Origin: a phage
Reading direction: 5' to 3' (one strand)
Length of the DNA: 64,000 bases
Sequence record: PZ386976.1
How positions within the stretch are numbered: position 1 is the first letter of the stretch; each line of letters starts with the position of its first letter. Shown one piece after another: positions 6,974 to 64,000 of the stretch. A program made the position numbers and the translations under genes. The notes below the pieces were generated by a model. That model was not told the origin of the DNA. It was given only the letters and a program-made list of their open reading frames with translations, and made no database searches.

Positions 6974-9146
6974 ACGCATAAATGCCATTTTTGGCTTTCT
7001 TACGGCCTTTACTAATTTCCTGAAGAAGATTTGTATCCTGAGTGGCTCGACAGGTCAAGATATCTTCCTCTTTATTAAGGCTGAAGTAGATGCTATTTAA
7101 AGTATGCGCATCAGTTCCTGAGTACACCACGTACAAGTCATTTTCCGAATCATAATGCAAATACTTGTCAATCTCTGGGTTTAGATACTGGTCAAAATGT
7201 TTGCAATAGTATCTGCCATCCTCTTGTTTGACAAACTCAACCTCTTCTTTACCCTCTGTCACTGCTTTAGTGAACTCCTTATCACCCATAAAGTTGCACA
7301 GCAGCACAAGTTGGGCACTATTCATATCTGCTGAAACAATATTAGTTCCTTCCTCACAAGTCCACACCTCCCTCATAGGCGCTCCATAGACAGCAGCACC
7401 AGACGGTACGTTTACAATACCATATTGTGTCATACGTCCAGTTGAAGTACCAAACACCATTGCACCAGCACTAAGGCGACCATCAGGACGAATCTGGTTA
7501 AGCCAACCTTTTTCATCATCCTTTGAGTTCTCAATAGTTCTGCGTCGGTGCATCAAAGTGTAGTATTTCGCAATCTTCTGTCCAAGCTCACCTTCAATCG
7601 TATCATAAGATGATTCAGTAAGTTTTGGTGAAGTACGGATTAAGCAAGGTTCAAGCAAATCTGTGTATTTCTTCACAGACCAGTTATGCTCAATGTACTG
7701 TACACCTTCATGTTCAACATAACTCAAACCACACCGCTCAACCATTTCCTGCCACTTAGGATGTTTTGTAATCATCTTTTTATTGTCTTTGAAACGACAA
7801 ACTTTGACAGGGCGACCATCTGAGTCTTTCTTGTAGTTCCAGTCATCTGGAATCCAACCAACTGATTTCAAGTAGTCTTTAACAACTGCTACCTGAGTCA
7901 TACGAGAAACTTCAAACTCAATTGGTGTATATGGTGCATCAATCAAACCTGTGTAGCGACTTGACTCAAGTTCAAAGTGGTTAACAACGTGGCTGTTATA
8001 GTACTTCACAGTTTTGACTGTTTTTACTGGCTTCCAGTCTTTGCACTTCTTACCAATCTTTGCATTCAACTCATTGCAAATTGCACGAGCATCCTTCATT
8101 GCTACAAAACCTTCCTTGTACTCTTCACCAGTTACAGTGTTGGTTGGTGTATAGCAATTCCTTTTTTCAATGTTAAAAATCTTTGTAGTTGGCTTACCAA
8201 ATGGTTTGATTTCATATGTTTGCATCTCACCGTTACGCACCTGCTGACGATACTTTGTCTTAGGGTACTTGGTAATTCTCTTCAGTCCATCTGCATGACC
8301 AAATGTTTCAACATACTCATTCCAAGCTTTTGCAAACTCTTCTCCAGTGACTTTACCTTTGGTCTTAATAGTTGGAGGTAGATGCGGTTCAACCTCTGAA
8401 GCAAGCTCATTAGTCAATTTGTCAAGTTCCTTCACATGGAACTCCATAAGCTCTTTATCAGCTTTCCAGCCATTAATAGCTTGTTGACTCATCCAGAAAG
8501 ATGTCTCTTTAGCTCGCATGTAAGTCTCATAAGTGTCTATACCACACTTCTTAAGCTTGAGATACTCGTTATCAAGTGCCCGTTTAGTTTTGGCGTTAAT
8601 ACGGATATCTTCTACAACACGAGTGAAGATTTCTGCATTCCACACACCCCAATGTTCAATCTCTGGTTTACGGACACCAACACGAGCACCCCATGCAGCC
8701 AAACCATGAGCACCTTTATAACCCTTTGGAGTTGGTCTATCCATCCACTGAACACGAGACTGGATAAGAGAATCCTGAAAGAAATTACTCCACGGCTTAC
8801 ATTTTGGATTATCAAAGTTCCATAAATCCGGTGCAATGTGATTGAAGACCCACCAGTCATAACCGAGGCCGTTATGGATACAAAGTCGTTTTGCCTTTAA
8901 CGCAAACTCAACACCTTCACGTAAACCACCCTTGATGTACTTAGTGTACTTGTGACCGAGGATAGGCTCATCTGTAAAGACCCATACAGGTGGCTCTTCA
9001 TCGTCAGATTTATAGTCTGCAAAAGCCATTACGTGAACTTTAGTGAACTCAAGGAGTAAACCATCAGTCTCTGTATCACCAACTAAATGTAAGTTTTTAA
9101 AATCTACGTTTTCCATTTTTACTCCCTCTAAAATCATTAACCTCAT
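6974..9146 (-). CDS. DNA polymerase (family A, T7-like), 5' exon with 3'-5' exonuclease domain
   Basis: Exo motif DTETDGL, T7-like FNHIAPD/AWG region, motif A SADMNSAQLVLL, start of motif B RKKAKNGIY; ORF then diverges into intron sequence. Confidence 0.8.
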
Positions 9147-55796: not shown

Positions 55797-55939
55797 AGAT
55801 AATCCTCTTGTCTTCTGTAATTTTGAAAGAACAGGTACAGACCAATTTCAGAGGATGAATAGTAGATTAATTCTACCCTTTTTGATTCCTTACAGTGATT
55901 GGTATTCTTACCTTTCTTCGGTTTATTTGATTTTCTCAT
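55778..55939 (-). CDS. small basic hypothetical protein
   Basis: Met with RBS aaggag 5 nt upstream. Confidence 0.3.
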   Translation of the reverse strand: MRKSNKPKKGKNTNHCKESKRVELIYYSSSEIGLYLFFQNYRRQEDYLCVVPN

Positions 55940-56050
55940 TAAGTCTCCTTTGTAGAACAAGGCAGACCTACAGCTTTAAGTAAGATGGTACAGTAATCCA
56001 TACAACAAGTCAAGAACTATTGCAAGTTAAAAAAGTCGTTGACAAAGTAC

Positions 56051-56079
56051 TTGACAAGGTGTAGGCTTATAAATACTTA
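56051..56079 (+). promoter_or_regulatory. sigma70-like promoter within conserved divergent-promoter module
   Basis: ttgacaaagtacTTGACAaggtg...; second TTGACA, 17 nt, TACTTA; same module at 9177-9215. Confidence 0.35.
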
Positions 56080-56188
56080 GAAGATAACTTAAAAGGTTCC
56101 TCTAAAAAGGCTATTTAAACAGATATCTTTCTGGATATCTATCTTTTATCTTAAAAGCCTTTTAAGAGGTCTTATAAGAGGCATACCA

Positions 56189-56560
56189 ATGAAAAACAGA
56201 ACAAACAAAGGCCAGTTTAAAAAAGGCCAGTCTGGAAACCCATCTGGAAGACCAAAAGGCTCTCGTAACAAAAGCTCACTCGTAAAAGCTCAACTGACCA
56301 TTGATAATTCTGCTGAGTTTGCTGCAAAGCTGTTTGAGGCGATTGTTACAAGGGATGCTGCTAAGCTTGCAGAGTTCGGGTTAAACACAGACGATGTAAC
56401 CATCAAGAGTATGATTGAGGTCGGTAAAACTATCATGACTCACTCAGCAGGTGAGATGAAAGCAATTGCAGCAGACACTAAGAAGACTCCTGATAATGGT
56501 GGTCAAACCCAGACAGATAACAAACCAACGTTCTCTGCTGTAGCGACTCTCAAAAAATAA
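56189..56560 (+). CDS. hypothetical protein with N-terminal Gly/Pro-rich basic motif
   Basis: FKKGQSGNPSGRPKG motif. Confidence 0.45.
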   Translation: MKNRTNKGQFKKGQSGNPSGRPKGSRNKSSLVKAQLTIDNSAEFAAKLFEAIVTRDAAKLAEFGLNTDDVTIKSMIEVGKTIMTHSAGEMKAIAADTKKTPDNGGQTQTDNKPTFSAVATLKK

Positions 56561-56641
56561 TTTTAAAAGGTGTTGACAGACTCTACAAAGTTGCTCTAAA
56601 GTCTGTCACATCAAACAACAAATGAGAGAAGAGAGTAAAAT

Positions 56642-58057
56642 ATGAGCGAGTTATTTAAACATGCGCACCTTCATGCAGGTCGAACTGAAAATGGTGCTGT
56701 AAACCATACTTCATCAATGTCTGCTCTGGTAGACTTCTACAAAGCCGCTGGCTCAAGCCGTAGCAATGTAGAAATCTTACCAGACCTGTTCTACAAAGCT
56801 TTGCGTGAGGATGTTGATGTTGCAGTTCGTATTTTACTGCATATGCGAGATGTGCGAGAAGGTATGGGTGAGCGTAAAGCTTTCCGAACTGTTTTACTTC
56901 AAGCAATTGAAGACAAAGTTTTAGAGCCTACACAGGTTCTTCGCATTATGGATAAGATTGCAGAACTTGGTCGTTTTGATGACTTCAAAATCTTCGTAGG
57001 TACTCGTTTTGAGACAGATGCCTTCAAACATTTAGAAGCAGCATTACTAGACCCTGCAACAGCAGGTTTAGCAGCTAAGTGGTTACCACGAGTAAAACCA
57101 CGCCACAAACAGTTTGTAAAACGTTTCTGCAAGTTTGCAAACTTAAGTGAGAAGGAGTATCGCACACTGTTGTCTGCACTATCTGATACGGTTGAGCAAA
57201 AAATCTCTGCTAATGAGTTTGGTAAGATTGACTACAGCAAGATTCCTTCACTCGCTGCTGCACGTTACCAAAAACTCTTTAACCGTAAAGATGGAGAACG
57301 TTACAAAGCTTACATCGAATCACTCTCAAAGGGTGAGGCTAAGATTAACGCTGGTGCTGTTTACCCATACGATGTGATTAAGTCTATCAAGCATGGTAAT
57401 GCAGATGTTGCCAATGAGCAGTGGAAAGCACTACCAAACTGGATGGCAGAAGGTGAGAACATTCTGTGTATGACCGATGTTTCAAGCTCAATGTCTTGGG
57501 TGAATCTTGGTTCAATCACTGCCCTTGATATTGGTGTATCACTTGCCTTGTATGTAGCAGAACGCAATACTGGTTGTTTTAAGAATGAGTTAATGGTTTA
57601 CTCAACAAACCCTCACTTCATCGAACTGAGTGGTGATTTACGAAACCGTCATCGTCAGGTGATGCGTCATGTTGAATATGGCTCAACTAACTTACAAGCA
57701 GCTTTTGACCGTATTCTTGAGATAGGTAAAAGAAACAACTTGACTCAGAAAGATATGCCAAGTAAGCTTATCATCTTCTCCGATATGGAGTTCAATCAGG
57801 TTGATGGTGCTAACGGTCGTACAAACTTTGAAGCAATTCAGAGTAAGTACAAAAAAGCTGGATATGAGATGCCACAACTGGTATTCTGGTACTTAGCAAA
57901 CCGTAATGGCACTTGCGAAGTATCTGTTAAGGATAACGGTGTAGCAATGGTATCTGGTTTCTCTCCAGCCACTTTAAAAGCTCTGCTTGGTGGTGAGAAG
58001 TTTGACCCAATCAGCGTAATGCTCAAAGCAGTAATGATTGACCGTTATATCTGGTAA
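56642..58057 (+). CDS. vWA-domain protein with Ro60-like features (N-terminal helical domain + C-terminal vWA with MIDAS)
   Basis: MIDAS-like DVSSSM followed by LGSI..., G-S-T-N and FSDMEF elements in order expected of Ro60 vWA domain; N-terminal ~300 aa helical; a DUF2828-type assignment cannot be excluded. Confidence 0.5.
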   Translation: MSELFKHAHLHAGRTENGAVNHTSSMSALVDFYKAAGSSRSNVEILPDLFYKALREDVDVAVRILLHMRDVREGMGERKAFRTVLLQAIEDKVLEPTQVLRIMDKIAELGRFDDFKIFVGTRFETDAFKHLEAALLDPATAGLAAKWLPRVKPRHKQFVKRFCKFANLSEKEYRTLLSALSDTVEQKISANEFGKIDYSKIPSLAAARYQKLFNRKDGERYKAYIESLSKGEAKINAGAVYPYDVIKSIKHGNADVANEQWKALPNWMAEGENILCMTDVSSSMSWVNLGSITALDIGVSLALYVAERNTGCFKNELMVYSTNPHFIELSGDLRNRHRQVMRHVEYGSTNLQAAFDRILEIGKRNNLTQKDMPSKLIIFSDMEFNQVDGANGRTNFEAIQSKYKKAGYEMPQLVFWYLANRNGTCEVSVKDNGVAMVSGFSPATLKALLGGEKFDPISVMLKAVMIDRYIW

Positions 58058-58075
58058 AAAGTTTTAAAAAGGGTA

Positions 58076-58104
58076 TTGACAATGTGTTTGATACCCTTTA
58101 ATAT
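58076..58104 (+). promoter_or_regulatory. sigma70-like promoter upstream of tRNA cluster
   Basis: TTGACA, 17 nt, TAATAT. Confidence 0.5.
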
Positions 58105-58166
58105 GTTCTACATAGAAACGAAATGAGAGCTTTTCTAAGATACTGAAAAATATTTTAAAAAAGTTC

Positions 58167-58196
58167 TTGACAACCACTAAAAAATAATGTTAAAGT
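58167..58196 (+). promoter_or_regulatory. second sigma70-like promoter upstream of tRNA cluster
   Basis: TTGACA, 17-18 nt, TAAAGT. Confidence 0.4.
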
Positions 58197-58222
58197 GGTT
58201 ACATAGAGTTTGAAAAGTTTAT

Positions 58223-58299
58223 CTCTGTTTAGCTCAGCTTGGTAGAGCGTTCCGTTTGGGGCGGTAAGGCCGGAGGTTCAAGTCCTCCAACAGAGACCA
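58223..58299 (+). tRNA. tRNA-Pro: tRNA-Pro (anticodon TGG)
   Basis: manual cloverleaf: acceptor ctctgtt/aacagag, anticodon loop ttTGGgg, T-arm ggagg-ttcaagt-cctcc, CCA encoded. Confidence 0.6.
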
Positions 58300-58316
58300 A
58301 ATTTAAAGGGGTTACT

Positions 58317-58673
58317 ATGAGATTTTTAAAAGAATGTCCAGTTCATGGTTTAACTGAACATAGCATTCATAAGAATGGTAACGCCGGTAATAGAGTAAAT
58401 TGTCTAAAATGTTGTGCATTAAGGACAAAACTTAGAGAGGATGCCAATAGGGAGAAAGCATACAAGTTTTATGGCGATAGTTGCAAAATTTGTGGCTATA
58501 ATAAATGTAAAAATGCTTTAGAATGGCATCACCTTAACCCAAACGAAAAAGAGAATACACCATCAAAAATTATGGGTGCATCTTGGGAAAAGGTTAAAAA
58601 AGAACTTGATAAATGTGTTTTGCTCTGTGCTAATTGCCACAGAGAGGTTCATAGTGGAATTACAACGGTTTAA
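58317..58673 (+). CDS. HNH homing endonuclease within tRNA cluster
   Basis: Cys-rich zinc-binding elements and HNH motif EWHHLNP...LLCANCHREVH; ORF 58239.. trimmed to MRFLKE because upstream part overlaps tRNA-Pro. Confidence 0.6.
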   Translation: MRFLKECPVHGLTEHSIHKNGNAGNRVNCLKCCALRTKLREDANREKAYKFYGDSCKICGYNKCKNALEWHHLNPNEKENTPSKIMGASWEKVKKELDKCVLLCANCHREVHSGITTV

Positions 58674-58674
58674 T

Positions 58675-58749
58675 GTCGTAGAAGGCAAATGGTTAGCCAC
58701 CTGACCTTCAATCAGTTGCTCGCAGGTTCGAATCCTGTCTACGACACCA
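58675..58749 (+). tRNA. tRNA, anticodon tentative (TTC, Glu?)
   Basis: acceptor gtcgtag/ctacgac, T-arm gcagg-ttcgaat-cctgt, CCA encoded; anticodon loop ccTTCaa has atypical C33. Confidence 0.45.
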
Positions 58750-58753
58750 GTTT

Positions 58754-58832
58754 TGACAGAAGACCAATTACAGCAAACTTAATCTTATTCATCTGAAGGT
58801 AAATCGGACAAAGAAGAGATTTGGTCTGGTCA
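58754..58832 (+). ncRNA. conserved bulged-helix module 1 (outer stem tgac/gtca, 5' AGA bulge, inner stem agaccaa/ttggtct, 3' G bulge)
   Basis: one of four copies with covarying outer stems; encloses AT-rich loop. Confidence 0.35.
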
Positions 58833-58840
58833 TTAAGAAT

Positions 58841-58917
58841 TGCGGGTATAGAGAAAGGGCGTCTCACATGTCTCATTAGCATGGTATCGGCAGGTTCGAC
58901 TCCTGCACCCGCCTCCA
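58841..58917 (+). tRNA. tRNA-Met/Ile2 (anticodon CAT), initiator-like unpaired 1:72
   Basis: acceptor (t)gcgggt/acccgc(c), anticodon loop ctCATta, T-arm gcagg-ttcgact-cctgc, CCA encoded. Confidence 0.5.
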
Positions 58918-58920
58918 ATT

Positions 58921-58986
58921 TTGCAGAAGACCGTATTCAGCAACAAACTACTTTTTGCGGATAAAAGAAAAAACACGGTCTGGCAA
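58921..58986 (+). ncRNA. conserved bulged-helix module 2 (outer ttgc/gcaa, inner agaccgt/acggtct)
   Basis: same architecture as module 1 with compensatory base changes. Confidence 0.35.
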
Positions 58987-58994
58987 TGTATTAA

Positions 58995-59071
58995 GGTTAG
59001 GAAGCACATAAGGTATGTGCGGTCGCCTGTTAAGCGAATGGCACAGGGTTCGAATCCCTGACTAACCGCCA
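58995..59071 (+). tRNA. tRNA-Asn: tRNA-Asn (anticodon GTT)
   Basis: acceptor ggttagg/actaacc, D-arm gcac-ataaggtat-gtgc, anticodon arm gtcgc-ctGTTaa-gcgaa, T-arm caggg-ttcgaat-ccctg, CCA. Confidence 0.7.
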
Positions 59072-59140
59072 AATTTAGGAGAGAAGCGATTGCTCACCGA
59101 TTTGTAAGGTGCAAGTCCTTAGCCTGAATAGAAATTAAAT

Positions 59141-59228
59141 GTGTCGTTATCCCGTAGATGGTAGCGGTGGGGACTGTAAATCCCTTGTCATTGAGACTCG
59201 GTAGGTTCGACTCCTACACGGCACACCA
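59141..59228 (+). tRNA. tRNA-Tyr: tRNA-Tyr (anticodon GTA), long variable arm
   Basis: acceptor gtgtcgt/acggcac, anticodon arm gggga-ctGTAaa-tccct, long variable arm, T-arm gtagg-ttcgact-cctac, CCA. Confidence 0.65.
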
Positions 59229-59233
59229 ATAAA

Positions 59234-59311
59234 GGTTATGTAGTTTAATTTGGTTAAAATACTCCCCTGTCACGGGAGATGATGAGGGTTCAAATCCCTT
59301 CGTAACCGCCA
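59234..59311 (+). tRNA. tRNA-Asp: tRNA-Asp (anticodon GTC)
   Basis: acceptor ggttatg/cgtaacc, anticodon arm ctccc-ctGTCac-gggag, T-arm gaggg-ttcaaat-ccctt, CCA. Confidence 0.7.
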
Positions 59312-59369
59312 ATTTTGAGAGGGCTATTTAGCCCCTCCCTTAAAGGGTTCTTACGAGTATCCTTTAAAG

Positions 59370-59451
59370 GAGCAGAAGACCAAATACAGCAAGAACGTAT
59401 GAAAATTTCAAGCCAATTTAATTTTGAAAAATTTAAAACTTGGTCTGGCTC
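59370..59451 (+). ncRNA. conserved bulged-helix module 3 (outer gagc/gctc, inner agaccaa/ttggtct)
   Basis: same architecture, compensatory outer-stem change. Confidence 0.35.
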
Positions 59452-59458
59452 AACAAAT

Positions 59459-59595
59459 TTACAGAAGACCGTTTACAGCAAAACTTAAACAATCTATTTC
59501 TCGGTAAAGAAAAGGCGAAGGTTCGATTCCTTCACTCGGCAGATGTCGAGTTGGTGTAATGGTAGCACTTAAGATGATAAACAACGGTCTGGTAA
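59459..59595 (+). ncRNA. conserved bulged-helix module 4 enclosing a circularly permuted tRNA-like domain; candidate Y-RNA-like RNA
   Basis: outer ttac/gtaa, inner agaccgt/acggtct; enclosed 59517-59568 has T-arm gaagg-ttcgatt-ccttc, 7-bp hairpin actcggc-agat-gtcgagt (acceptor-like) and D-arm-like gtg-taatggtag-cac in permuted order. Confidence 0.35.
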
Positions 59596-59736
59596 TTATC
59601 TTTGTAGATAAGTTATTAAGCTTACCTGTGAGTATGCGACCACAAAGGGTGAAAGGGTAAATTCTAGATTTAAACCCAAAAAGGCACATCGCTACAGACC
59701 TTAAGCAAGTCTGGGTAGCTTATCTACAAAGATAAT
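59595..59736 (+). ncRNA. long hairpin with perfect 18-bp stem enclosing ~106 nt
   Basis: attatctttgtagataag (59595-59612) is the exact reverse complement of cttatctacaaagataat (59719-59736); no ORF. Confidence 0.3.
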
Positions 59737-59741
59737 TTAAT

Positions 59742-59817
59742 GGAAGTGTAGCAGAATGGTGATGCGGCAGACTTTTAATCTGACAGGCGATGGGTTCGAA
59801 TCCCTCCACTTCTACCA
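59742..59817 (+). tRNA. tRNA-Lys: tRNA-Lys (anticodon TTT)
   Basis: acceptor ggaagtg/cacttct, D-arm gca-gaatggtga-tgc, anticodon loop ctTTTaa, T-loop ttcgaat, CCA. Confidence 0.6.
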
Positions 59818-59821
59818 AAAT

Positions 59822-59898
59822 GGTTCAGTCGCAGATAAGGTAATTCAAGGGTCTCATAAGACCTATGAATGTGGGTTCGATTCCCATCTGAACCTCCA
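59822..59898 (+). tRNA. tRNA-Met/Ile2 (anticodon CAT), tentative
   Basis: acceptor ggttcag/ctgaacc perfect, anticodon loop ctCATaa, T-arm gtggg-ttcgatt-cccat, CCA; D-arm irregular. Confidence 0.45.
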
Positions 59899-59900
59899 AT

Positions 59901-59975
59901 TGTGGGTTAGCATAAATGGTAATGCAAACGGCTGATAACCGTTAGAAGAGGGTTCGATACCCTCACCTACAACCA
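59901..59975 (+). tRNA. tRNA-Ile: tRNA-Ile (anticodon GAT)
   Basis: acceptor tgtgggt/acctaca, D-arm gcat-aaatggta-atgc, anticodon arm aacgg-ctGATaa-ccgtt, T-arm gaggg-ttcgata-ccctc, CCA. Confidence 0.7.
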
Positions 59976-59990
59976 ATTTCAATAAAGTTG

Positions 59991-60019
59991 TTGACATTGA
60001 GATGTGACTACTTTATAGT
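59991..60019 (+). promoter_or_regulatory. sigma70-like promoter inside tRNA cluster
   Basis: TTGACA, 17 nt, TATAGT; followed by ~200 nt ORF-free region before next tRNA. Confidence 0.5.
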
Positions 60020-60222
60020 AACCTTAGTTTTCGTTGCGTAGCGTCTATTTTGCAAATTTAAAATAAATGCAAACGACAATGTTTTTCTGGCAGTAGCTTG
60101 ATAGGCTAAACACCAGTGAGGTCTTCCAATCCCTCATCAAAGAATTTGGCGTACTAGCCCACGGTATGATTAATAAGGTGGGCATCTTTAAGTGCTTTCT
60201 GAGAGAGTCTTTAAAGATTAAT

Positions 60223-60299
60223 GCACCCTTAGTTCAATTGGATAGAGCAACGGTCTTCTAAATCGTTAGTTACAGGTTCGAATCCTGTAGGGTGTACCA
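60223..60299 (+). tRNA. tRNA-Arg: tRNA-Arg (anticodon TCT)
   Basis: acceptor gcaccct/agggtgt, D-arm gttc-aattggata-gagc, anticodon arm acggt-ctTCTaa-atcgt, T-arm acagg-ttcgaat-cctgt, CCA. Confidence 0.7.
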
Positions 60300-60441
60300 A
60301 ATAGTTAGCAGATTGCTTAGACGACCTTATCGGGTCTCCGTGTAAGGAGGTGGTCTGTATCTCATGTTTTCCAGAACATGTAAATAATCTGAGAAGGGGC
60401 TTTACAGTGTTGCGAAAATACGGTAAGCTTCGAATTATAGT

Positions 60442-60524
60442 ATGGGACGATGTTAAGACTCTAAGGCATGAGCAACGGCCTCCAAAACCGTTTCAAAGGG
60501 GTTCAACTCCTCCGTCCCATGCCA
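60442..60524 (+). tRNA. tRNA-like gene with oversized D region (possible anticodon CCA, Trp?)
   Basis: acceptor atgggac/gtcccat perfect, T-arm agggg-ttcaact-cctcc, CCA; candidate anticodon loop ctCCAaa; D region ~7 nt too long. Confidence 0.35.
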
Positions 60525-60537
60525 AAGTCTTATTAGG

Positions 60538-60625
60538 GGTAGGTAGCGGCTAATGGCAGCCAAACAGTCTTGAAAACTGTTGCCACTGTAGAGATACGGT
60601 GAGGGTTCGACTCCTTTACTTACCG
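60538..60625 (+). tRNA. tRNA-Ser: tRNA-Ser (anticodon TGA), long variable arm
   Basis: acceptor ggtaggt/acttacc, anticodon arm acagt-ctTGAaa-actgt perfect, long variable arm, T-loop ttcgact. Confidence 0.6.
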
Positions 60626-60882
60626 CCTAATAAGATTTAAAGCCAAGCTTCATTCGGATGTTGCTTTGGTATCCCTCGTGTATTGTCGTACACACTGATA
60701 AAGCACCTAGTAGGTGTCACGGAGAAGAGATAATATCAAGCTCTCCAAAGGTTCTAGTCACCGGATTAAACAAGGCTATGCAAAGACCTGTTTAGGTCTT
60801 TTTAGAGGGCTTCTAAGGTTATTACAGCTTGTTGTGGAACCTTGTTGCTTAGGTTCTTAGAAGTTCTCTAAAAAGATTTAAT

Positions 60883-60960
60883 GGGAGATTGACGGTAATT
60901 GGTAAACCTACCATCCTTAGAAGTTGGTGTTTGAGGGTTCGAATCCCTTGTCTCCTACCA
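60883..60960 (+). tRNA. tRNA, anticodon tentative (TAG, Leu?) with short variable arm
   Basis: acceptor gggagat/gtctcct, anticodon arm ccatc-ctTAGaa-gttgg, T-arm gaggg-ttcgaat-ccctt, discriminator A, CCA. Confidence 0.45.
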
Positions 60961-60967
60961 AATTAAT

Positions 60968-61043
60968 GCAGGTGTAGCAAAATGGTTATGCGGCTGACTC
61001 TTAATCAGTAAGACGATGGGTTCAATTCCCTCCACCTGTACCA
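60968..61043 (+). tRNA. tRNA-Lys: tRNA-Lys (anticodon CTT)
   Basis: paralog of Lys-TTT gene; anticodon arm gctga-ctCTTaa-tcagt, T-loop ttcaatt, CCA. Confidence 0.55.
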
Positions 61044-61049
61044 AATATT

Positions 61050-61125
61050 GGGGTCATAGTTTATATGGTTAAAATTCGAGTTTTGCAAACTTGGGAACTG
61101 AGTTCAATTCTCAGTGACTCCACCA
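61050..61125 (+). tRNA. tRNA-Ala: tRNA-Ala (anticodon TGC)
   Basis: acceptor ggggtca/tgactcc, anticodon arm cgagt-ttTGCaa-acttg, T-arm ctgag-ttcaatt-ctcag, CCA. Confidence 0.6.
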
Positions 61126-61131
61126 ATTAGT

Positions 61132-61206
61132 GCATCCATAGTTTAAACGGGAAAATTACAGTCTTCCAAACTGAGGTTGAGGGTTCGATTCCCTCTGGAT
61201 GCTCCA
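61132..61206 (+). tRNA. tRNA-Gly: tRNA-Gly (anticodon TCC)
   Basis: acceptor gcatcca/tggatgc perfect, anticodon loop ctTCCaa, T-arm gaggg-ttcgatt-ccctc, CCA. Confidence 0.6.
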
Positions 61207-61212
61207 AACAAT

Positions 61213-61289
61213 GCTGCTTTCGTATAATTGGCTATTACACATCCCTTGTAAGGATGGAAATGCAGGTTCGAGTCCTGTGAGCAGCACCA
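61213..61289 (+). tRNA. tRNA-Thr: tRNA-Thr (anticodon TGT)
   Basis: acceptor gctgctt/gagcagc, anticodon arm catcc-ctTGTaa-ggatg perfect, T-arm gcagg-ttcgagt-cctgt, CCA. Confidence 0.7.
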
Positions 61290-61380
61290 ATTCAGAGGTC
61301 AAGTGAAAGACCGCTGGTGTCAACTGAAGACCGTAACAAATTCCACGGAGTTGAGTTAGCGGCACAACTTCAGACCTCTT
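61290..61380 (+). ncRNA. structured element with terminal inverted repeat and a variant of the conserved gaagaccgt box
   Basis: cagaggtc pairs with gacctct ~70 nt downstream; contains ctgaagaccgtaacaaa. Confidence 0.25.
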
Positions 61381-61384
61381 TCAT

Positions 61385-61459
61385 ACTCGCTTAGTTTATA
61401 TGGTAAAACATCACCCTTACAAGATGAAGAAGAAGGTTCAAGTCCTTTAGTGAGTACCA
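61385..61459 (+). tRNA. tRNA-Val: tRNA-Val (anticodon TAC), tentative
   Basis: acceptor actcgct/agtgagt, anticodon arm tcacc-ctTACaa-gatga (one mismatch), T-arm gaagg-ttcaagt-ccttt, CCA. Confidence 0.5.
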
Positions 61460-61460
61460 T

Positions 61461-61538
61461 GTTCCAGTATCCCAATTGGCAGAGGATGCAAGCTCAAACC
61501 TTGTACTAGTGACGGTTCGAATCCGTCTTGGAACACCA
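61461..61538 (+). tRNA. tRNA-Leu: tRNA-Leu (anticodon CAA) with short variable arm
   Basis: acceptor gttccag/ttggaac, D-arm tcc-caattggcaga-gga, anticodon arm gcaag-ctCAAac-cttgt, T-arm gacgg-ttcgaat-ccgtc, discriminator A, CCA. Confidence 0.5.
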
Positions 61539-61543
61539 ATTTT

Positions 61544-61619
61544 GCAGGATTAGTTCAAATGGATAGAGCAACAGTCTACGAAGCTGTTAATAGGGGTTCG
61601 AATCCCTTATCCTGCACCA
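61544..61619 (+). tRNA. tRNA-Arg: tRNA-Arg (anticodon ACG)
   Basis: acceptor gcaggat/atcctgc perfect, D-arm gttc-aaatggata-gagc, anticodon arm acagt-ctACGaa-gctgt, T-loop ttcgaat, CCA. Confidence 0.65.
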
Positions 61620-61638
61620 ATTTAAAGAGGCTATTTAA

Positions 61639-62196
61639 ATGAGATATTTGAAGTATGCTTCATGGATTTTCCTAGCTTTGTTAGACCCATTGGCAGCAAC
61701 CTTAGCAGTTATCTTAGCACCTTTTGTAGTTCCATTCTATAGTGAGAAGAAAGGACATCTACCTTTTGGATTCAGATGGATGGAGACATATGACAACCCT
61801 ATTGATGGTGATGAAGGTCACATTAAACGATGGGCTAAGATTAGAAAGATTGGTAAGCTTGGTGTCTATTTGCAGAGAGTTGGATGGCTCTGGAGAAACA
61901 AAGCTTATAACTTCTCTTACCATGTGTTAGGAAGAGATATAAAAGATGTTACTAAGTGGAAAGGTAATATCAACGTAAGCTCTGACCCTGAAGATAATCA
62001 GACAGGTTATCTCCTAATGTGGAACAGTAATGCTTGGGGATTATTCGCTTTTATCCCATCAATTAAAATCTTTGGTAAACAATTCTACTGGAGAATTTAT
62101 GTTGGGTGGAAACTAAAAAGTGTTGTCCCAGAAGAAAGAGCATTCTCAAGGGAAAGAGTTATGTTGGCATTCTTTATTCATCCACTGAGAAAGTAA
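61639..62196 (+). CDS. membrane protein embedded in tRNA cluster
   Basis: 185 aa with N-terminal hydrophobic helix. Confidence 0.45.
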   Translation: MRYLKYASWIFLALLDPLAATLAVILAPFVVPFYSEKKGHLPFGFRWMETYDNPIDGDEGHIKRWAKIRKIGKLGVYLQRVGWLWRNKAYNFSYHVLGRDIKDVTKWKGNINVSSDPEDNQTGYLLMWNSNAWGLFAFIPSIKIFGKQFYWRIYVGWKLKSVVPEERAFSRERVMLAFFIHPLRK

Positions 62197-62204
62197 AGAT
62201 TTAA

Positions 62205-62280
62205 AGGGGATTAGTTTACAAGGTTGAAACCTCGGTCTTTGAAATCGAAGAAGTTGGTTCAATTCCAACATCCCCCGCCA
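62205..62280 (+). tRNA. tRNA-Gln: tRNA-Gln (anticodon TTG)
   Basis: acceptor (a)ggggat/atccccc with unpaired 1:72, D-arm gttt-acaaggttg-aaac, anticodon arm tcggt-ctTTGaa-atcga, T-arm gttgg-ttcaatt-ccaac, CCA. Confidence 0.55.
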
Positions 62281-62282
62281 AT

Positions 62283-62361
62283 GCTCCATTACTCCAATTG
62301 GCAGAGAGGCCAGACTTAAAATCTGTGTTATGTATCGGTTCGAATCCGATATGGAGTACCA
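62283..62361 (+). tRNA. tRNA-Leu: tRNA-Leu (anticodon TAA) with short variable arm
   Basis: acceptor gctccat/atggagt, D-arm ctc-caattggcaga-gag, anticodon arm ccaga-ctTAAaa-tctgt, T-arm atcgg-ttcgaat-ccgat, discriminator A, CCA. Confidence 0.5.
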
Positions 62362-62366
62362 AATTT

Positions 62367-62442
62367 AGCGGTATAGCATAACTGGCAATGCAGCAGTCTC
62401 TGAAGCTGTCCTATTAAGGTTCAAATCCTTATGCCGCTGCCA
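62367..62442 (+). tRNA. tRNA-Gln (anticodon CTG), tentative
   Basis: acceptor agcggta/tgccgct, anticodon arm gcagt-ctCTGaa-gctgt, T-arm taagg-ttcaaat-cctta, CCA. Confidence 0.5.
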
Positions 62443-62473
62443 CTTCTAAGGATTCTTACGAGAGTCCTTAAAT

Positions 62474-62549
62474 GTGGCCTTATCATAAATGGTAATGACC
62501 CATGCTGTGAACATGGTCTATACGGGTTCAAATCCCGTAGGTCACCCCA
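62474..62549 (+). tRNA. tRNA-His: tRNA-His (anticodon GTG)
   Basis: acceptor gtggcct/aggtcac, anticodon arm ccatg-ctGTGaa-catgg perfect, T-arm acggg-ttcaaat-cccgt, CCA. Confidence 0.65.
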
Positions 62550-62554
62550 ATTTA

Positions 62555-62631
62555 TAGTCCAAGTAGCTTATATGGTTAAAGCGCGTGTCTGAAAAACATG
62601 AGAAGAGGGTTCAAATCCCACTGGACTACCA
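62555..62631 (+). tRNA. tRNA-Phe: tRNA-Phe (anticodon GAA), 3' end ambiguous
   Basis: acceptor tagtcca/tggacta, anticodon arm cgtgt-ctGAAaa-acatg, T-arm gaggg-ttcaaat-cccac. Confidence 0.5.
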
Positions 62632-62648
62632 ATTTCAAAGGTGCTTAA

Positions 62649-63382
62649 TGAAAGAGATGACAGAACAAGGTAAGGAGATTTTTAATCTCTTAAAAACCGG
62701 TAGAGGGTTTTCTAATCCCCTTATTACTGGTGCAGCAGTTCTAGGTGGAACCGTAGCTGCCTCTACATCACTTGTAAGCTCTATTAGTTCTGTAACAGAC
62801 CCTACAATGAAGGATAAACTCATTGCTGCTGGACTTACAACAGTTCTGCTTAATAGCTTTACAACGAGTCTGACAAGCACTACAGCAACTACTAAGACAT
62901 TGACAGATTATGGTCAAAAATCTATTGATGAGTTTTCCTCACGTATGCAGGTAGCAAAAGGCTACTCCAATGTTATGGGTGCAGCAGGAGAGCAAGTTGG
63001 TTGTACACCATTTAGTGGTATTATGGGTGTTGCTACAGAGTATGGTCAAAAAGCTATGGATACAATTAACAGCACACTAGATGATGTTAATGCCGTGTTA
63101 AGTGACTTACAGGATGCTATTGATAAAGGTCTTGATACTATTTCTGATTTAGCTAACCAAGCCGTTAGCAAGATTAATGAAGGTATCTCGAAGATTACAG
63201 CTTATGCAGATGAAGTTGTGCAGATGATTGAAGAAGAAGCTGCCCTTGTTGCAGATTACCTTAAAACGAATATTAATGGGTTCTTAGCAGGTGTCTTACC
63301 AGACTGGTTTGATGATGCTTGTAAAACTGGTGTGATTGACACTATTGCAACACCAGAAATGAAGAACGCATTACAGAAATAA
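62649..63382 (+). CDS. hypothetical protein, Ser/Thr-rich N-terminal half and helical C-terminal half
   Basis: ORF 62585.. trimmed to MKEMTEQ because upstream part overlaps tRNA-Phe. Confidence 0.45.
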
Positions 63383-63383
63383 T

Positions 63384-63476
63384 GGAAGATTAACCCTAAA
63401 AGGTAAGGGAGCAGTTTGCTAAACTGCCAGTAGCTGAGAAATCGGTGTACCAGTTCAAGTCTGGTATCTTCCTCCA
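63384..63476 (+). tRNA. tRNA-Ser: tRNA-Ser (anticodon GCT), long variable arm
   Basis: acceptor ggaagat/atcttcc perfect, anticodon arm gcagt-ttGCTaa-actgc perfect, long variable arm, T-arm accag-ttcaagt-ctggt, CCA. Confidence 0.7.
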
Positions 63477-63480
63477 ATTT

Positions 63481-63556
63481 GAATCCGTGACAGAAATGGA
63501 TATGTGCCTGTCTGCAAAACAGGTTTATAAGGGTTCGAGTCCCTTCGGATTCTCCA
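63481..63556 (+). tRNA. tRNA-Cys: tRNA-Cys (anticodon GCA)
   Basis: acceptor gaatccg/cggattc perfect, anticodon arm cctgt-ctGCAaa-acagg perfect, T-arm aaggg-ttcgagt-ccctt, CCA. Confidence 0.7.
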
Positions 63557-63593
63557 AGTTATTTTACTCTCTCTCAATTAAAATAATAATAAT

Positions 63594-63653
63594 GCCCTGC
63601 TATAAGTATTCTTCCTTTCGCTACCGAAGAGTATTTTTAGACAGGGCTTTTTT
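63594..63653 (+). terminator. terminator-like long hairpin plus T-run at end of tRNA cluster
   Basis: gccctg...cagggc then TTTTTT. Confidence 0.45.
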
Positions 63654-63778
63654 ACAGAGTTATACTTTATAAGAAGGCTTATACAGTATGTCTCTGACGT
63701 ACATTGTGGTTTCTCCTTGACGGTCTCTGTGCCGTCTTTTTTAAGGGGAAACATGGTTAATTATTTGGAGAAAACATA

Positions 63779-63979
63779 ATGAGTGAGACCGTTTATAAAG
63801 AACTTTATGAAGCTAATAAAAAGCTAGAATTTATGCAGAACACTATCATGGCAATTGCAGATAGATTATCTGTAGCAACAGGTATTGGTATTAAAGAAGC
63901 ATCTATGGATGCACTTCTGGATGCTGTTGATGCAAAGTTCGAAGTTAAGAAAGAAGATACTGCTACAGACTCTGAATAA
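63779..63979 (+). CDS. hypothetical protein
   Basis: 66 aa ORF with RBS ggaga. Confidence 0.35.
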   Translation: MSETVYKELYEANKKLEFMQNTIMAIADRLSVATGIGIKEASMDALLDAVDAKFEVKKEDTATDSE

Positions 63980-64000
63980 TTCTATTTGCGGAGGCGCTTA

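What the first reader, a model, noticed from the sequence alone, without database searches (positions are those of the whole stretch)
56642..59736. Ro60-like vWA protein encoded beside tRNA-like and Y-RNA-like structured elements
The 471 aa product of 56642..58057 has a C-terminal vWA domain with a MIDAS motif (DVSSSM) and flanking residues that follow the pattern I recall for Ro60, behind a ~300 aa helical N-terminal domain. In bacteria and some phages, Ro60 orthologs are encoded next to Y-RNA-like RNAs that carry tRNA-like domains. Here the gene sits directly upstream of a promoter pair and an RNA cluster that holds canonical tRNAs plus conserved non-tRNA structured modules, so the locus could encode a phage Ro60 RNP. 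The N-terminal domain assignment is the weak point.
Basis: partly seen in the sequence, partly recalled or inferred. Interest (0 to 1): 0.85.

Follow-up and report, generated by a model that had tools for sequence, protein, structure and literature searches.

The report
Phage Ro60-like protein with partner RNAs
A Felix O1-type phage encodes a ring-shaped Ro60-like protein next to four small structured RNAs, one a scrambled tRNA look-alike, and the same protein-plus-RNA pairing recurs in very different phages, which points to an undescribed family of partner RNAs for a protein already shown to defeat a bacterial defence.

Summary

What appears new is the RNA. Four modules lie between tRNAs at 58754-58832, 58921-58986, 59370-59451 and 59459-59595. 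They share an outer stem, an AGA bulge, an inner stem (AGACCnn/nnGGUCU), a bulged G and a UNCAGCAA loop start.

Module 4 encloses a V hairpin, a T arm, a closed acceptor hairpin and a D arm. This is the permuted order seen in bacterial YrlA.

The generalised motif (AGR stem, ACAGCAA, YCU-G) sits beside DUF2828 genes, always on the gene strand. I found it in phages of enterobacteria, Campylobacter, Listeria and Mycobacterium, with extensive compensatory changes. It is absent from a related phage that lacks the gene, and no Rfam 15 family matched any module in the loci I scanned.

RNP formation is inferred, not shown. gp130 alone suffices against Ppl.

The parts
56573..56602 (+). sigma-70-like promoter (TTGACA-18-TAAAGT) upstream of the Ro60-like gene
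   Evidence: consensus match only
56642..58057 (+). Ro60-like ring protein gene (DUF2828 + DUF7788/vWA with MIDAS D279-S281-S283...T349...D381). It is the ortholog of Bas63 gp130.
58068..58099 (+). terminator-like hairpin just after the gene's stop codon; it overlaps the first promoter of the RNA array
58076..58196 (+). two promoter-like sites (58076-58104 and 58167-58196) that would drive the tRNA/module array
58223..58746 (+). tRNA-Pro (58223-58299), an inserted HNH endonuclease ORF (58314-58673), and tRNA-Glu(UUC) (58675-58746, found by Rfam only)
58754..58832 (+). Module 1 (short Y-like RNA): UGAC / AGA bulge / AGACCAA / UUACAGCAA ... UUGGUCU / G bulge / GUCA. It lies between tRNA-Glu and tRNA-Met.
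58921..58986 (+). Module 2 (short): UUGC / AGA / AGACCGU / AUUCAGCAA ... ACGGUCU / G / GCAA. It lies between tRNA-Met and tRNA-Asn.
59370..59451 (+). Module 3 (short): GAGC / AGA / AGACCAA / AUACAGCAA ... UUGGUCU / G / GCUC
59459..59595 (+). Module 4 (YrlA-like). The basal stem UUAC/AGA/AGACCGU ... ACGGUCU/G/GUAA encloses a V hairpin, a T arm (59517-59533), a closed acceptor-like hairpin (59534-59551) and a D arm (59552-59569).
59596..59741 (+). Highly structured element of unknown role: a 22-bp closing stem around a multi-branch core. One arm (59696-59713) is a minimal AGAC-CUUAAGCAA-GUCU-G hairpin that resembles the module motif. It is conserved only within Felixounavirus.
   Evidence: (z = -5.5)

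Best explanation
The locus encodes a phage version of the Ro60/Y-RNA system. The 471-aa protein is a Ro60-type ring (a helical-repeat toroid closed by a vWA/MIDAS domain) from the divergent DUF2828/DUF7788 family. The four modules in the first part of the tRNA array are its cognate Y-RNA-like partners.

Shown:
- The fold of the protein.
- The conserved architecture of the RNAs, with compensatory base changes.
- A strict same-strand, adjacent linkage between this RNA motif and DUF2828 genes across phages of several bacterial phyla.
- Through the 98%-identical Bas63 gp130, experimental evidence that the protein counters the Ppl defence (taken from the literature).

Inferred:
- The array is transcribed from the promoters at 58076 and 58167.
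- RNase P and 3'-end tRNA processing of the flanking tRNAs would release each module as a discrete RNA of about 65-140 nt, with its 5' and 3' ends paired. The modules begin 4-8 nt after a tRNA or another module, and modules 1 and 2 end 9 nt before the next tRNA.
- The protein recognises the conserved basal element: unpaired A's, the AGR/YCU base pairs, the bulged G, and the single-stranded ACAGCAA that starts the loop.
- The variable upper part, a tRNA-like domain in module 4, acts as an effector or tether module as in YrlA. It might recruit tRNA-binding enzymes or an exoribonuclease such as PNPase.

Whether the RNAs take part in anti-Ppl activity is open. The protein alone is sufficient in T7.
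For: Protein:
- The AF2 model has pLDDT 88 and pTM 0.88.
- The Foldseek top 12 PDB hits are all Ro60/TROVE over the full length.
- The MIDAS residues are invariant.
- The protein is 98% identical to Bas63 gp130, described as Ro60-like and as a Ppl counter in PMC11482910.
- Full-length mycobacteriophage homologs (about 34% identity) are annotated 'Ro-like RNA binding protein'.

RNA in the window:
- The 5' motif occurs 4 times against 0.16 expected.
- All four copies share one fold, and the outer stems covary: UGAC/GUCA, UUGC/GCAA, GAGC/GCUC, UUAC/GUAA.
- Covariance model R1 finds exactly these four.

RNA across phages:
- Relatives with 51-63% protein identity carry compensatory inner stems, e.g. 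GGACUGU/ACAGUCC, AGUAUC/GAUACU, AGAAGCU/AGCUUCU.
- In 65 loci with 40-47% protein identity there are 70 strict modules on the gene strand and 0 on the other strand.
- A looser scan gives 74 hits within 1 kb of the gene on the gene strand and 3 on the opposite strand.
- R1 gives 52 hits at E<=0.01, all on the gene strand, in 39 of 65 loci.
- In a non-circular test, 62% of sequence-only 5' motifs find their own 7-bp partner plus G, against 7.7% for foreign stems. The paired modules use 40 distinct stems.
- Pair counts: 6 of 7 pairs show double changes, and the covariation score is 0.84 against 0.22 shuffled and 0.09-0.16 slid.
- Modules sit next to the gene in Mycobacterium phage Kingsolomon, Listeria phage LP-064 and Campylobacter phage F365.
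- Reverse association: 12 of 35 complete modules found by DNA pattern in IMG/VR have the gene within 150-640 nt on the same strand, against 1 of 85 incomplete motifs.
- Erwinia phage phiEa104 has a tRNA array in the same genomic position but lacks both the gene and the modules.

tRNA-like domain:
- The T arm, closed acceptor hairpin and D arm occur in that order only on the gene strand (46 hits against 0).
- The RNAalifold consensus has 24 pairs, 20 of them with compensatory changes.
- The long modules align collinearly with the S. Typhimurium YrlA effector module (YrlA sequence from bioRxiv 10.1101/312249; topology from PMC4201824).
Against: - There are no expression, processing or binding data for these RNAs. 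RNP formation rests on gene-RNA linkage and on analogy.
- gp130 expressed alone from a plasmid or from T7 restores growth on Ppl hosts (PMC11482910). So the phage RNAs are not needed for that phenotype.
- The canonical Ro60-binding motifs (GGUCCGA; GNCGAAN0-1G) are absent from the basal stems, and no Rfam Y_RNA match appears even at E<=10.
- Sequence and profile searches do not link the protein to TROVE/Ro60.
- Only about 39-45 of 65 distant loci show a module with my detectors.
- 23 of 35 complete modules from the IMG/VR pattern scan had no homolog within the fetched stretch. Some of these lie at contig ends, and some are dispersed copies in genomes that do carry the gene elsewhere.
- In several phages the modules lie immediately upstream of the start codon, which also fits a cis-regulatory leader.
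Confidence: 0.7

Rival explanations
1. The modules are cis-acting elements: autoregulatory leaders or trailers of the DUF2828 mRNA, or processing and stability signals of the tRNA precursor. On this view they are not trans-acting Y-like RNAs.
For: In many distant phages a module ends 15-60 nt before the start codon of the gene (L022, L024, L025, L030, L039, L080) or lies in its 3' UTR ahead of a terminator (Kingsolomon). In the window the modules are embedded in a polycistronic tRNA array.
Against: The position flips between 5' and 3' of the gene. In Felix-type phages the modules are separated from the gene by a terminator-like hairpin and two promoters. Two to five copies occur per locus. Some carry a complete tRNA-like domain with a conserved T arm, closed acceptor hairpin and D arm, which a leader would not need. 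A related phage with a tRNA array but without the gene lacks them. The bacterial rsr-yrlBA operon shows the same co-transcription of protein and Y RNAs (PMC4201824).
Confidence: 0.15
2. The protein works purely as a protein-level inhibitor, for example a vWA/MIDAS-mediated blocker of Ppl. The nearby RNAs are unrelated passengers, such as degenerate or rearranged tRNA genes.
For: gp130 alone rescues T7 on Ppl hosts (PMC11482910). Some annotations call parts of this region 'tRNA-pseudo/OTHER'.
Against: The non-tRNA motif (AGR stem, ACAGCAA, YCU-G) is conserved with compensatory changes. It tracks the gene across phages of Proteobacteria, Campylobacterota, Firmicutes and Actinobacteria, including loci with no tRNA genes at all (L021). 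It is always on the gene strand. Decaying pseudogenes would not do this.
Confidence: 0.1
3. Module 4 is the acceptor piece of a permuted, two-piece tmRNA whose coding part is the tag-like frame at 60069.
For: ARAGORN calls a permuted tmRNA in Moogle by joining the module 4 tRNA-like domain to the tag ANDNVFLAVA**. Sub-threshold Rfam tmRNA_permuted and tmRNA matches cover 59918-60222. The tag frame is conserved.
Against: The tRNA-like domain of module 4 is closed by its own covarying basal stem, which carries the same motif as the three short modules. Three canonical tRNAs and a promoter-like site lie between it and the tag. The acceptor-like stem has C3-G70, not the G3-U70 alanine identity pair (read from the sequence). 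The tag frame is also present in Erwinia phiEa104, which has no modules.
Confidence: 0.03

Closest known systems
Bas63 (Escherichia phage JohannRWettstein) gp130, from the PhageMaP preprint PMC11482910
   Same: It is the ortholog: 471 aa, 98% identical, in the same position directly upstream of tRNA-Pro. The authors describe it as structurally similar to Ro60 and show that it counters the Ppl defence.
   Different: The preprint only speculates that some annotated tRNA genes might be Y RNAs. The candidate RNAs defined here are not the annotated tRNAs. They are unannotated modules between the tRNAs, and in Bas63 they partly overlap small minus-strand 'hypothetical' ORFs (bas63_0137 and bas63_0138).
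Bacterial Rsr(Ro60)-YrlA/YrlB system (S. Typhimurium, M. smegmatis; Chen et al. 2014, PMC4201824; YrlA structure in bioRxiv 10.1101/312249)
   Same: A ring protein gene lies next to several small RNAs on the same strand. The RNAs have a stem formed by their 5' and 3' ends. One class carries a tRNA-like domain in the permuted order V, T, closed acceptor, D, and another is shorter (YrlB). A YUAY-like element (UUAC) starts the V region.
   Different: The protein belongs to DUF2828/DUF7788, not to TROVE, by sequence. The basal-stem motif is AGR...ACAGCAA...YCU-G instead of GNCGAAN0-1G. In Felix-type phages the RNAs are interleaved with genuine tRNAs. No RtcBA genes lie alongside in this window.
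Thermus phage phiLo phiRo60 with Yrl1/Yrl2 (PMC12135203; PDB 9KOP, 9L5Y)
   Different: phiRo60 is annotated as TROVE, and its Yrls were picked out by the CGAA motif. There is no tRNA-like domain or tRNA array context.
Vertebrate Ro60-Y RNA RNP (PDB 1YVP, 2I91)
   Different: Sequence identity is about 13%. The phage protein is about 60 residues shorter. The conserved RNA helix sequence is different.
Mycobacteriophage 'Ro-like RNA-binding protein' (e.g. LeBron gp53, Kingsolomon gp54)
   Same: It belongs to the same DUF2828 family (34% identity over the full length). Kingsolomon has three modules with the same motif right after the gene, the middle one tRNA-like.
   Different: The host is GC-rich and the stems begin UGGAC. 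The only functional datum is toxicity on overexpression (PMC13148394).

Membership tests
Ro60 / TROVE ring proteins | Helical-repeat toroid closed by a C-terminal vWA domain (overall fold) | tested here: met
Ro60 / TROVE ring proteins | MIDAS motif (DxSxS...T...D) in the vWA domain | tested here: met
   D279, S281, S283, T349 and D381 are invariant in 40 homologs.
Ro60 / TROVE ring proteins | Sequence match to the TROVE domain model or to Ro60 sequences | tested here: not met
   There is no TROVE hit in Pfam at E<=0.1. Neither the single sequence nor a 40-sequence profile hits any Ro60 chain in the PDB.
Ro60 / TROVE ring proteins | Binds Y RNA on the outer ring surface and misfolded RNA ends in the central hole | not testable with these tools
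   This needs EMSA, CLIP or a structure.
DUF2828/DUF7788 phage 'RNA-binding protein' (PHROG 850) | Full-length match to the family models | tested here: met
   PF11443 at 1e-29, PF25043 at 2e-43, phrog_850 at 1e-183 covering residues 1-471.
Anti-Ppl counter-defence protein (Bas63 gp130) | Orthology to the experimentally tested protein | tested here: met
   98% identity over 471 aa with the same synteny. The function itself is taken from PMC11482910 and was not tested here.
Y RNA / YrlA family | Encoded next to the Ro60-type gene on the same strand | tested here: met
   The window modules begin 700 nt downstream of the gene. In 65 distant loci all 52 covariance-model hits and all 70 strict modules are on the gene strand.
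Y RNA / YrlA family | Terminal stem formed by the 5' and 3' ends, with bulges and conserved bases | tested here: met
   Folds. Covariation.
Y RNA / YrlA family | tRNA-like effector domain in the order V, T arm, closed acceptor stem, D arm (YrlA) | tested here: met
   This holds for module 4 and for long modules in other phages. They align collinearly with S. Typhimurium YrlA nt 15-93.
Y RNA / YrlA family | Canonical Ro-binding sequence (GGUCCGA in animals; GNCGAAN0-1G in bacteria) in the terminal stem | tested here: not met
   The basal stems read AGA-AGACCnn / nnGGUCU-G. The only GGCGAAGG, in module 4, is the 5' strand of the T stem.
Y RNA / YrlA family | Match to the Rfam Y_RNA covariance model | tested here: not met
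   No Y_RNA hit in 55900-64000 at E<=10. No Rfam family matches the modules in 12 distant loci.
Y RNA / YrlA family | Stable RNA bound by the Ro60-type protein in vivo | not testable with these tools
   This needs Northern blots and RIP.
Canonical tRNA | Cloverleaf recognised by ARAGORN or the Rfam tRNA model | tested here: not met
   None of the four modules is called a tRNA by either tool.

The most novel reading that the evidence does not exclude
DUF2828 proteins and the AGR-stem/ACAGCAA RNAs form a widespread, phage-specific branch of the Ro60/Y-RNA system with its own RNA recognition code. Its RNAs are matured by the host tRNA-processing machinery. As an RNP, it acts in counter-defence or in quality control of phage tRNA, for example by tethering a host exoribonuclease or by decoying tRNA-directed immunity, with anti-Ppl activity as one read-out.
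Probability: 0.35. Interest if true: 0.85.

Novelty: new variant of a known kind. Interest (0 to 1): 0.68.

Why it matters
Ro60/Y-RNA particles are conserved from bacteria to humans, yet what they do in phages is largely unknown. This protein family already has a clean phenotype: Bas63 gp130 defeats the Ppl defence. This analysis adds a defined set of candidate partner RNAs and a simple, mutable recognition motif. The motif is shared by Felix O1-type, Listeria, Campylobacter and mycobacterial phages, among others.

Three questions become directly testable. Does a phage Ro60-like protein need its RNAs? What does the tRNA-like module recruit? How does an RNA-binding ring neutralise a PHP/ATPase defence protein?

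The work also supplies a candidate new RNA family, with a covariance model, that annotation pipelines currently miss or mislabel as pseudo-tRNAs or as small ORFs.

Tried and rejected
1. Sequence-level links to Ro60 all failed: phmmer and a profile hmmsearch against PDB sequences, Pfam TROVE and NCBIfam. The relationship is visible only at fold level.
2. Rfam found nothing on the modules, either at gathering thresholds or at E<=10.
3. PADLOC models gave no meaningful hit for the protein or for the DUF5681 neighbour.
4. My first scanner required an A-N-A bulge, a 4-bp outer stem and the exact Felix-type motif. It found nothing systematic in distant loci. Relaxing it to the AGR stem plus C[AC]GCAA revealed the general motif.
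5. I considered a permuted tmRNA, as suggested by ARAGORN on Moogle, and rejected it for module 4 (see the rival explanations).
6. I considered that GGCGAAGG in module 4 might be the YrlA Ro-binding motif. I rejected this because it is the T-stem strand and has no counterpart in the other modules.
7. A guessed accession for Bas63 (MZ501111) turned out to be another phage. The correct one, MZ501086, came from the paper.
8. Supplementary tables of Chen et al. 2014 are not held. So I could not check whether any DUF2828 phage was in their YrlA survey.


Full report
**Identity of the window.** The region is from a Felix O1-type myovirus (genus Felixounavirus). Bases 56000-60500 match 348 phage records. 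The best matches are Salmonella phage Meda and Escherichia phage nataliec at about 95% identity.

**The observation.**
- ORF 56642..58057 (+) encodes 471 aa.
- Pfam assigns DUF2828 to the N-terminal part and DUF7788 to the C-terminal part, with a sub-threshold VWA_2 match. PHROG 850, labelled 'RNA-binding protein', matches end to end at 1e-183.
- The DVSSSM segment is a DxSxS MIDAS start. D279, S281, S283, T349 and D381 are invariant across 40 homologs down to 43% identity.
- Downstream lie promoter-like TTGACA sites at 58076 and 58167.
- The tRNA array has 25 ARAGORN calls plus a tRNA-Glu at 58675-58746 that only Rfam detects.
- So the described features are there, at the stated coordinates.

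**Is the protein Ro60-like?**
- By sequence it is not. There is no TROVE hit in Pfam. Neither the single sequence nor a 40-sequence profile hits any Ro60 chain in the PDB.
- By fold it is. An AlphaFold2 model built on the 40-sequence alignment has pLDDT 88 and pTM 0.88.
- The 12 best Foldseek matches in the PDB are all Ro60/TROVE structures aligned over the whole length. They include Xenopus Ro60, Deinococcus Rsr and Thermus phage phiLo Ro60 (E 2e-8 to 1e-6, TM up to 0.66). After them come only isolated vWA domains.

**Prior knowledge of the protein.**
- It is 98% identical to bas63_0130 of Escherichia phage JohannRWettstein (Bas63), which sits in the same position upstream of tRNA-Pro.
- The PhageMaP preprint (PMC11482910) makes four relevant statements:
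  - deleting it cripples Bas63 on hosts carrying the Ppl defence;
  - gp130 expressed alone, from a plasmid or from the T7 genome, rescues T7 on Ppl hosts;
- Full-length mycobacteriophage homologs (34% identity) are annotated 'Ro-like RNA binding protein'. LeBron gp53 is toxic when overexpressed (PMC13148394).
- Genuine phage Ro60/Y-RNA particles are documented for Thermus phage phiLo (PMC12135203). They were predicted for other phages by Chen et al. 2014 (PMC4201824).
- The protein-level interpretation is therefore correct but already published.

**The RNA modules in the window.**
- Reading 58000-60320 shows a repeated pair of motifs. The pattern AGAAGACCNNNTNCAGCAA occurs four times in 64 kb, all between 58758 and 59481 on the + strand, against 0.16 expected.
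- Each copy is followed 40-115 nt later by nnGGTCTGG.
- All four fold the same way:
  - a 4-bp outer stem that differs between copies but stays complementary (UGAC/GUCA, UUGC/GCAA, GAGC/GCUC, UUAC/GUAA);
  - a 3-nt AGA bulge on the 5' side;
  - a 7-bp inner stem (AGACCAA/UUGGUCU or AGACCGU/ACGGUCU);
  - a single bulged G on the 3' side;
  - a loop that starts (U/A)U(A/U)CAGCAA.
- The modules span 58754-58832, 58921-58986, 59370-59451 and 59459-59595.
- Modules 1 and 2 start 4-8 nt after the preceding tRNA and end 9 nt before the next one. Module 4 starts 8 nt after module 3. Ordinary tRNA end-processing would therefore release them as separate RNAs. This step is an inference.

**Module 4 is a tRNA mimic in permuted order.**
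- Inside its basal stem the minimum-free-energy fold gives four elements:
  - a small hairpin;
  - a canonical T arm (GAAGGUUCGAUUCCUUC, 59517-59533);
  - a 7-bp hairpin immediately after it (ACUCGGC-AGAU-GUCGAGU);
  - a D arm (GUGUAAUGGUAGCAC).
- This order (V, T, closed acceptor stem, D, all enclosed by a stem that replaces the anticodon arm) is the one described for bacterial YrlA (PMC4201824, section 6).
- Long modules from eleven phages give an RNAalifold consensus of basal stem, T arm, acceptor-like stem and D arm. It has 24 pairs, 20 of them with compensatory changes.
- The modules align collinearly with S. Typhimurium YrlA nt 15-93 (sequence from bioRxiv 10.1101/312249). The alignment includes the conserved UA before the D arm and a YUAY-like UUAC at the start of the V region.

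**Comparative evidence in the subfamily.**
- All Ounavirinae loci that carry the gene have the modules. This includes Moogle, SUSP-type phages and Bas63.
- Relatives at 51-63% protein identity keep the architecture with different inner stems:
  - Yersinia phage P778: GGACUGU/ACAGUCC, GGAUUC/GAAUCC, GGACUC/GAGUCC;
  - metagenomic relatives: AGUAUC/GAUACU, AGACUAU/GUAGUCU, AGUGUCU/GGACACU, AGAAUC/GAUUCU, AGAAGCU/AGCUUCU.
- A 143-kb phage (L089) has at least five modules directly after the gene, three of them with tRNA-like domains.
- Erwinia phage phiEa104 (Kolesnikvirus) has the DUF5681 gene followed directly by its tRNA array. It lacks the Ro60-like gene, it has no module, and not a single C[AC]GCAA occurs in its array.

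**Generalisation to distant phages.** The common core is (A)AA, then AGR-N4, then (U/A)(U/A)(A/U)C-AGCAA (variant CCGCAA), the variable loop, N4-YCU, and G.
- I examined 65 IMG/VR loci encoding homologs of 40-47% identity.
- A strict detector finds 70 modules on the gene strand and none on the opposite strand.
- A looser detector finds 74 hits within 1 kb of the gene on the gene strand (127 kb searched) and 3 on the other strand. The far flanks (468 kb) give 23 and 16.
- In a test that does not select on pairing, 105 of 170 sequence-only 5' motifs have their own perfect 7-bp partner plus G within 300 nt. Stems borrowed from other modules find a partner in 7.7% of cases. The paired modules use 40 different stems.
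- On an alignment of 40 short modules, 6 of 7 pairs show changes on both sides (95 cells against 27 +/- 5 in shuffles). The covariation score is 0.84, against 0.22 shuffled and 0.09-0.16 with slid partners. These sequences had been selected for pairing, which is why the test matters.
- A covariance model built from that alignment (R1) finds exactly the four modules in the window with filters off (E 1e-7 to 3e-4; next best hit E 0.16). Modules 3 and 4 were not in the training set.
- R1 gives 52 hits at E<=0.01 in the 65 loci, all on the gene strand, in 39 loci.
- R1 also detects modules in loci not used for training: three in Listeria phage LP-064, and others in Yersinia P778, Mycobacterium phage Kingsolomon and KVP40-type Vibrio phages.
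- By eye, Kingsolomon has three modules immediately after the gene, the middle one with T, acceptor and D arms, followed by a terminator. Listeria LP-064 has three modules and Campylobacter F365 has two immediately before the gene.
- In L021, L024 and L080 the tRNA-like modules sit directly upstream of the gene, in stretches with few or no tRNA genes.
- In the reverse direction, I scanned IMG/VR for AAGGATNNTTACAGCAA and obtained 120 matches. Of these, 35 have the complementary partner plus G. Twelve of the 35 have a DUF2828 homolog 150-640 nt away on the same strand, against 1 of the 85 incomplete matches.
- No Rfam 15 family matches any module. I found no paper in the searchable library that describes them.

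**Interpretation.** The best-supported reading is a Ro60/Y-RNA-type system in which a divergent ring protein family (DUF2828/DUF7788) has its own family of partner RNAs.
- The conserved part of the RNA is the terminal stem with its flanking unpaired purines and the ACAGCAA strand. This is where Ro60 binds in known Y RNAs.
- The variable part is the loop, sometimes a tRNA mimic. This is where effectors bind in known Y RNAs.
- The linkage, strand bias and covariation are shown. Binding, processing and function of the RNAs are inferred.
- The main evidence against a functional requirement is that gp130 alone counters Ppl in T7.
- The canonical Ro-binding motifs are absent, so these RNAs should not be filed as YrlA or Y_RNA members. 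They work like them in architecture and genomic logic.
- Rival readings fit the data less well, for the reasons listed under each rival: cis-regulatory leaders, tRNA-array processing signals or pseudogenes, and a permuted tmRNA acceptor piece.

**Other features of the region.**
- Between module 4 and tRNA-Lys lies a 146-nt element (59596-59741) with a 22-bp closing stem and z = -5.5. It is conserved only within Felixounavirus. One arm is a minimal AGAC-CUUAAGCAA-GUCU-G hairpin. Its role is unknown.
- An HNH endonuclease ORF (58314-58673) is inserted between tRNA-Pro and tRNA-Glu in this phage and a few relatives, but it is absent from most.
- A tmRNA-like tag frame at 60069 is described under the passing observations.

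**Verdict.** The protein part is already known. The RNA family and its recognition motif appear to be new, which makes this a new variant of the Ro60/Y-RNA kind. Confidence that the RNAs are real, structured and genetically tied to the protein is high, about 0.95. Confidence that they form an RNP with it is moderate, about 0.7.

Noticed in passing
window 60026-60222 (+), tag frame at 60069-60104: A tmRNA-like message lies between tRNA-Ile and tRNA-Arg. After a strong promoter-like site (59991-60019), an A-rich stretch precedes GCAAACGACAATGTTTTTCTGGCAGTAGCTTGATAG. This reads ANDNVFLAVA** (E. coli ssrA tag: ANDENYALAA). The frame is conserved with coding-type variation in Moogle (the same peptide with synonymous changes), SUSP-type phages (ANDNAFLAVA**) and Erwinia phiEa104 (ANDAQFLAVA**). 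Rfam tmRNA_permuted and tmRNA hits are sub-threshold (32.5 and 14 bits). ARAGORN calls a permuted tmRNA in Moogle. No convincing tRNA-like partner was identified.
   Followed up: partly
window 59596-59741 (+): A 146-nt element has a 22-bp closing stem and a multi-branch core (MFE -46.4 kcal/mol, z = -5.5). It is conserved at 94-100% only within Felixounavirus. It contains a mini hairpin, AGAC-CUUAAGCAA-GUCU-G, that resembles the module motif. Its function is unknown.
   Followed up: partly
window 58314-58673 (+): An HNH endonuclease ORF (PHROG 2255, 9e-29) is inserted between tRNA-Pro and tRNA-Glu. Most relatives lack it (91% query coverage in most records), so it is probably a mobile homing endonuclease. 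ARAGORN misses the tRNA-Glu(UUC) that begins right after it, at 58675-58746, whereas Rfam finds it.
   Followed up: no
L085 (Bas63) 8749-8901 and 8913-9023, minus strand; window ORF 59459..59689 (-): Small 'hypothetical protein' ORFs annotated on the minus strand (bas63_0137 and bas63_0138) overlap modules 3 and 4 and the 146-nt element. They are probably spurious calls over structured RNA genes. Knock-out data for them in PhageMaP would in fact report on the RNAs.
   Followed up: no
L211 (Listeria phage LP-064) 4813-5458; LeBron (literature): In Listeria phage LP-064 an RtcB-like RNA ligase gene lies 1.3 kb downstream of the DUF2828 gene. Mycobacteriophage LeBron combines the Ro-like gene with an RNA ligase and a polynucleotide kinase. 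Both recall the bacterial rsr-yrlBA-rtcBA RNA-repair operon.
   Followed up: no
L002 (Yersinia phage P778) 6470-7160 and 7640-8010: Several orphan T-arm-like sequences (GGGTTCGATTCCC and similar) sit in long stretches that ARAGORN does not call as tRNAs. They could be interrupted, intron-containing or otherwise unusual tRNA-like genes.
   Followed up: no
window 56189-56560 (+): A DUF5681 gene (PHROG 4114) always sits immediately upstream of the Ro60-like gene in Ounavirinae. Erwinia phiEa104, which has lost or never had the Ro60-like gene, still carries it.
   Followed up: no
window 61639-62196 (+): A DUF7338 protein gene (185 aa, 7e-62) is embedded inside the tRNA array between tRNA-Arg and tRNA-Gln. 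Bas63 has it too.
   Followed up: no
L078 8710-9201 (+): A distant DUF2828-encoding phage carries a full-length tmRNA gene (87 bits) 2.3 kb downstream of the Ro60-like gene and its modules.
   Followed up: no
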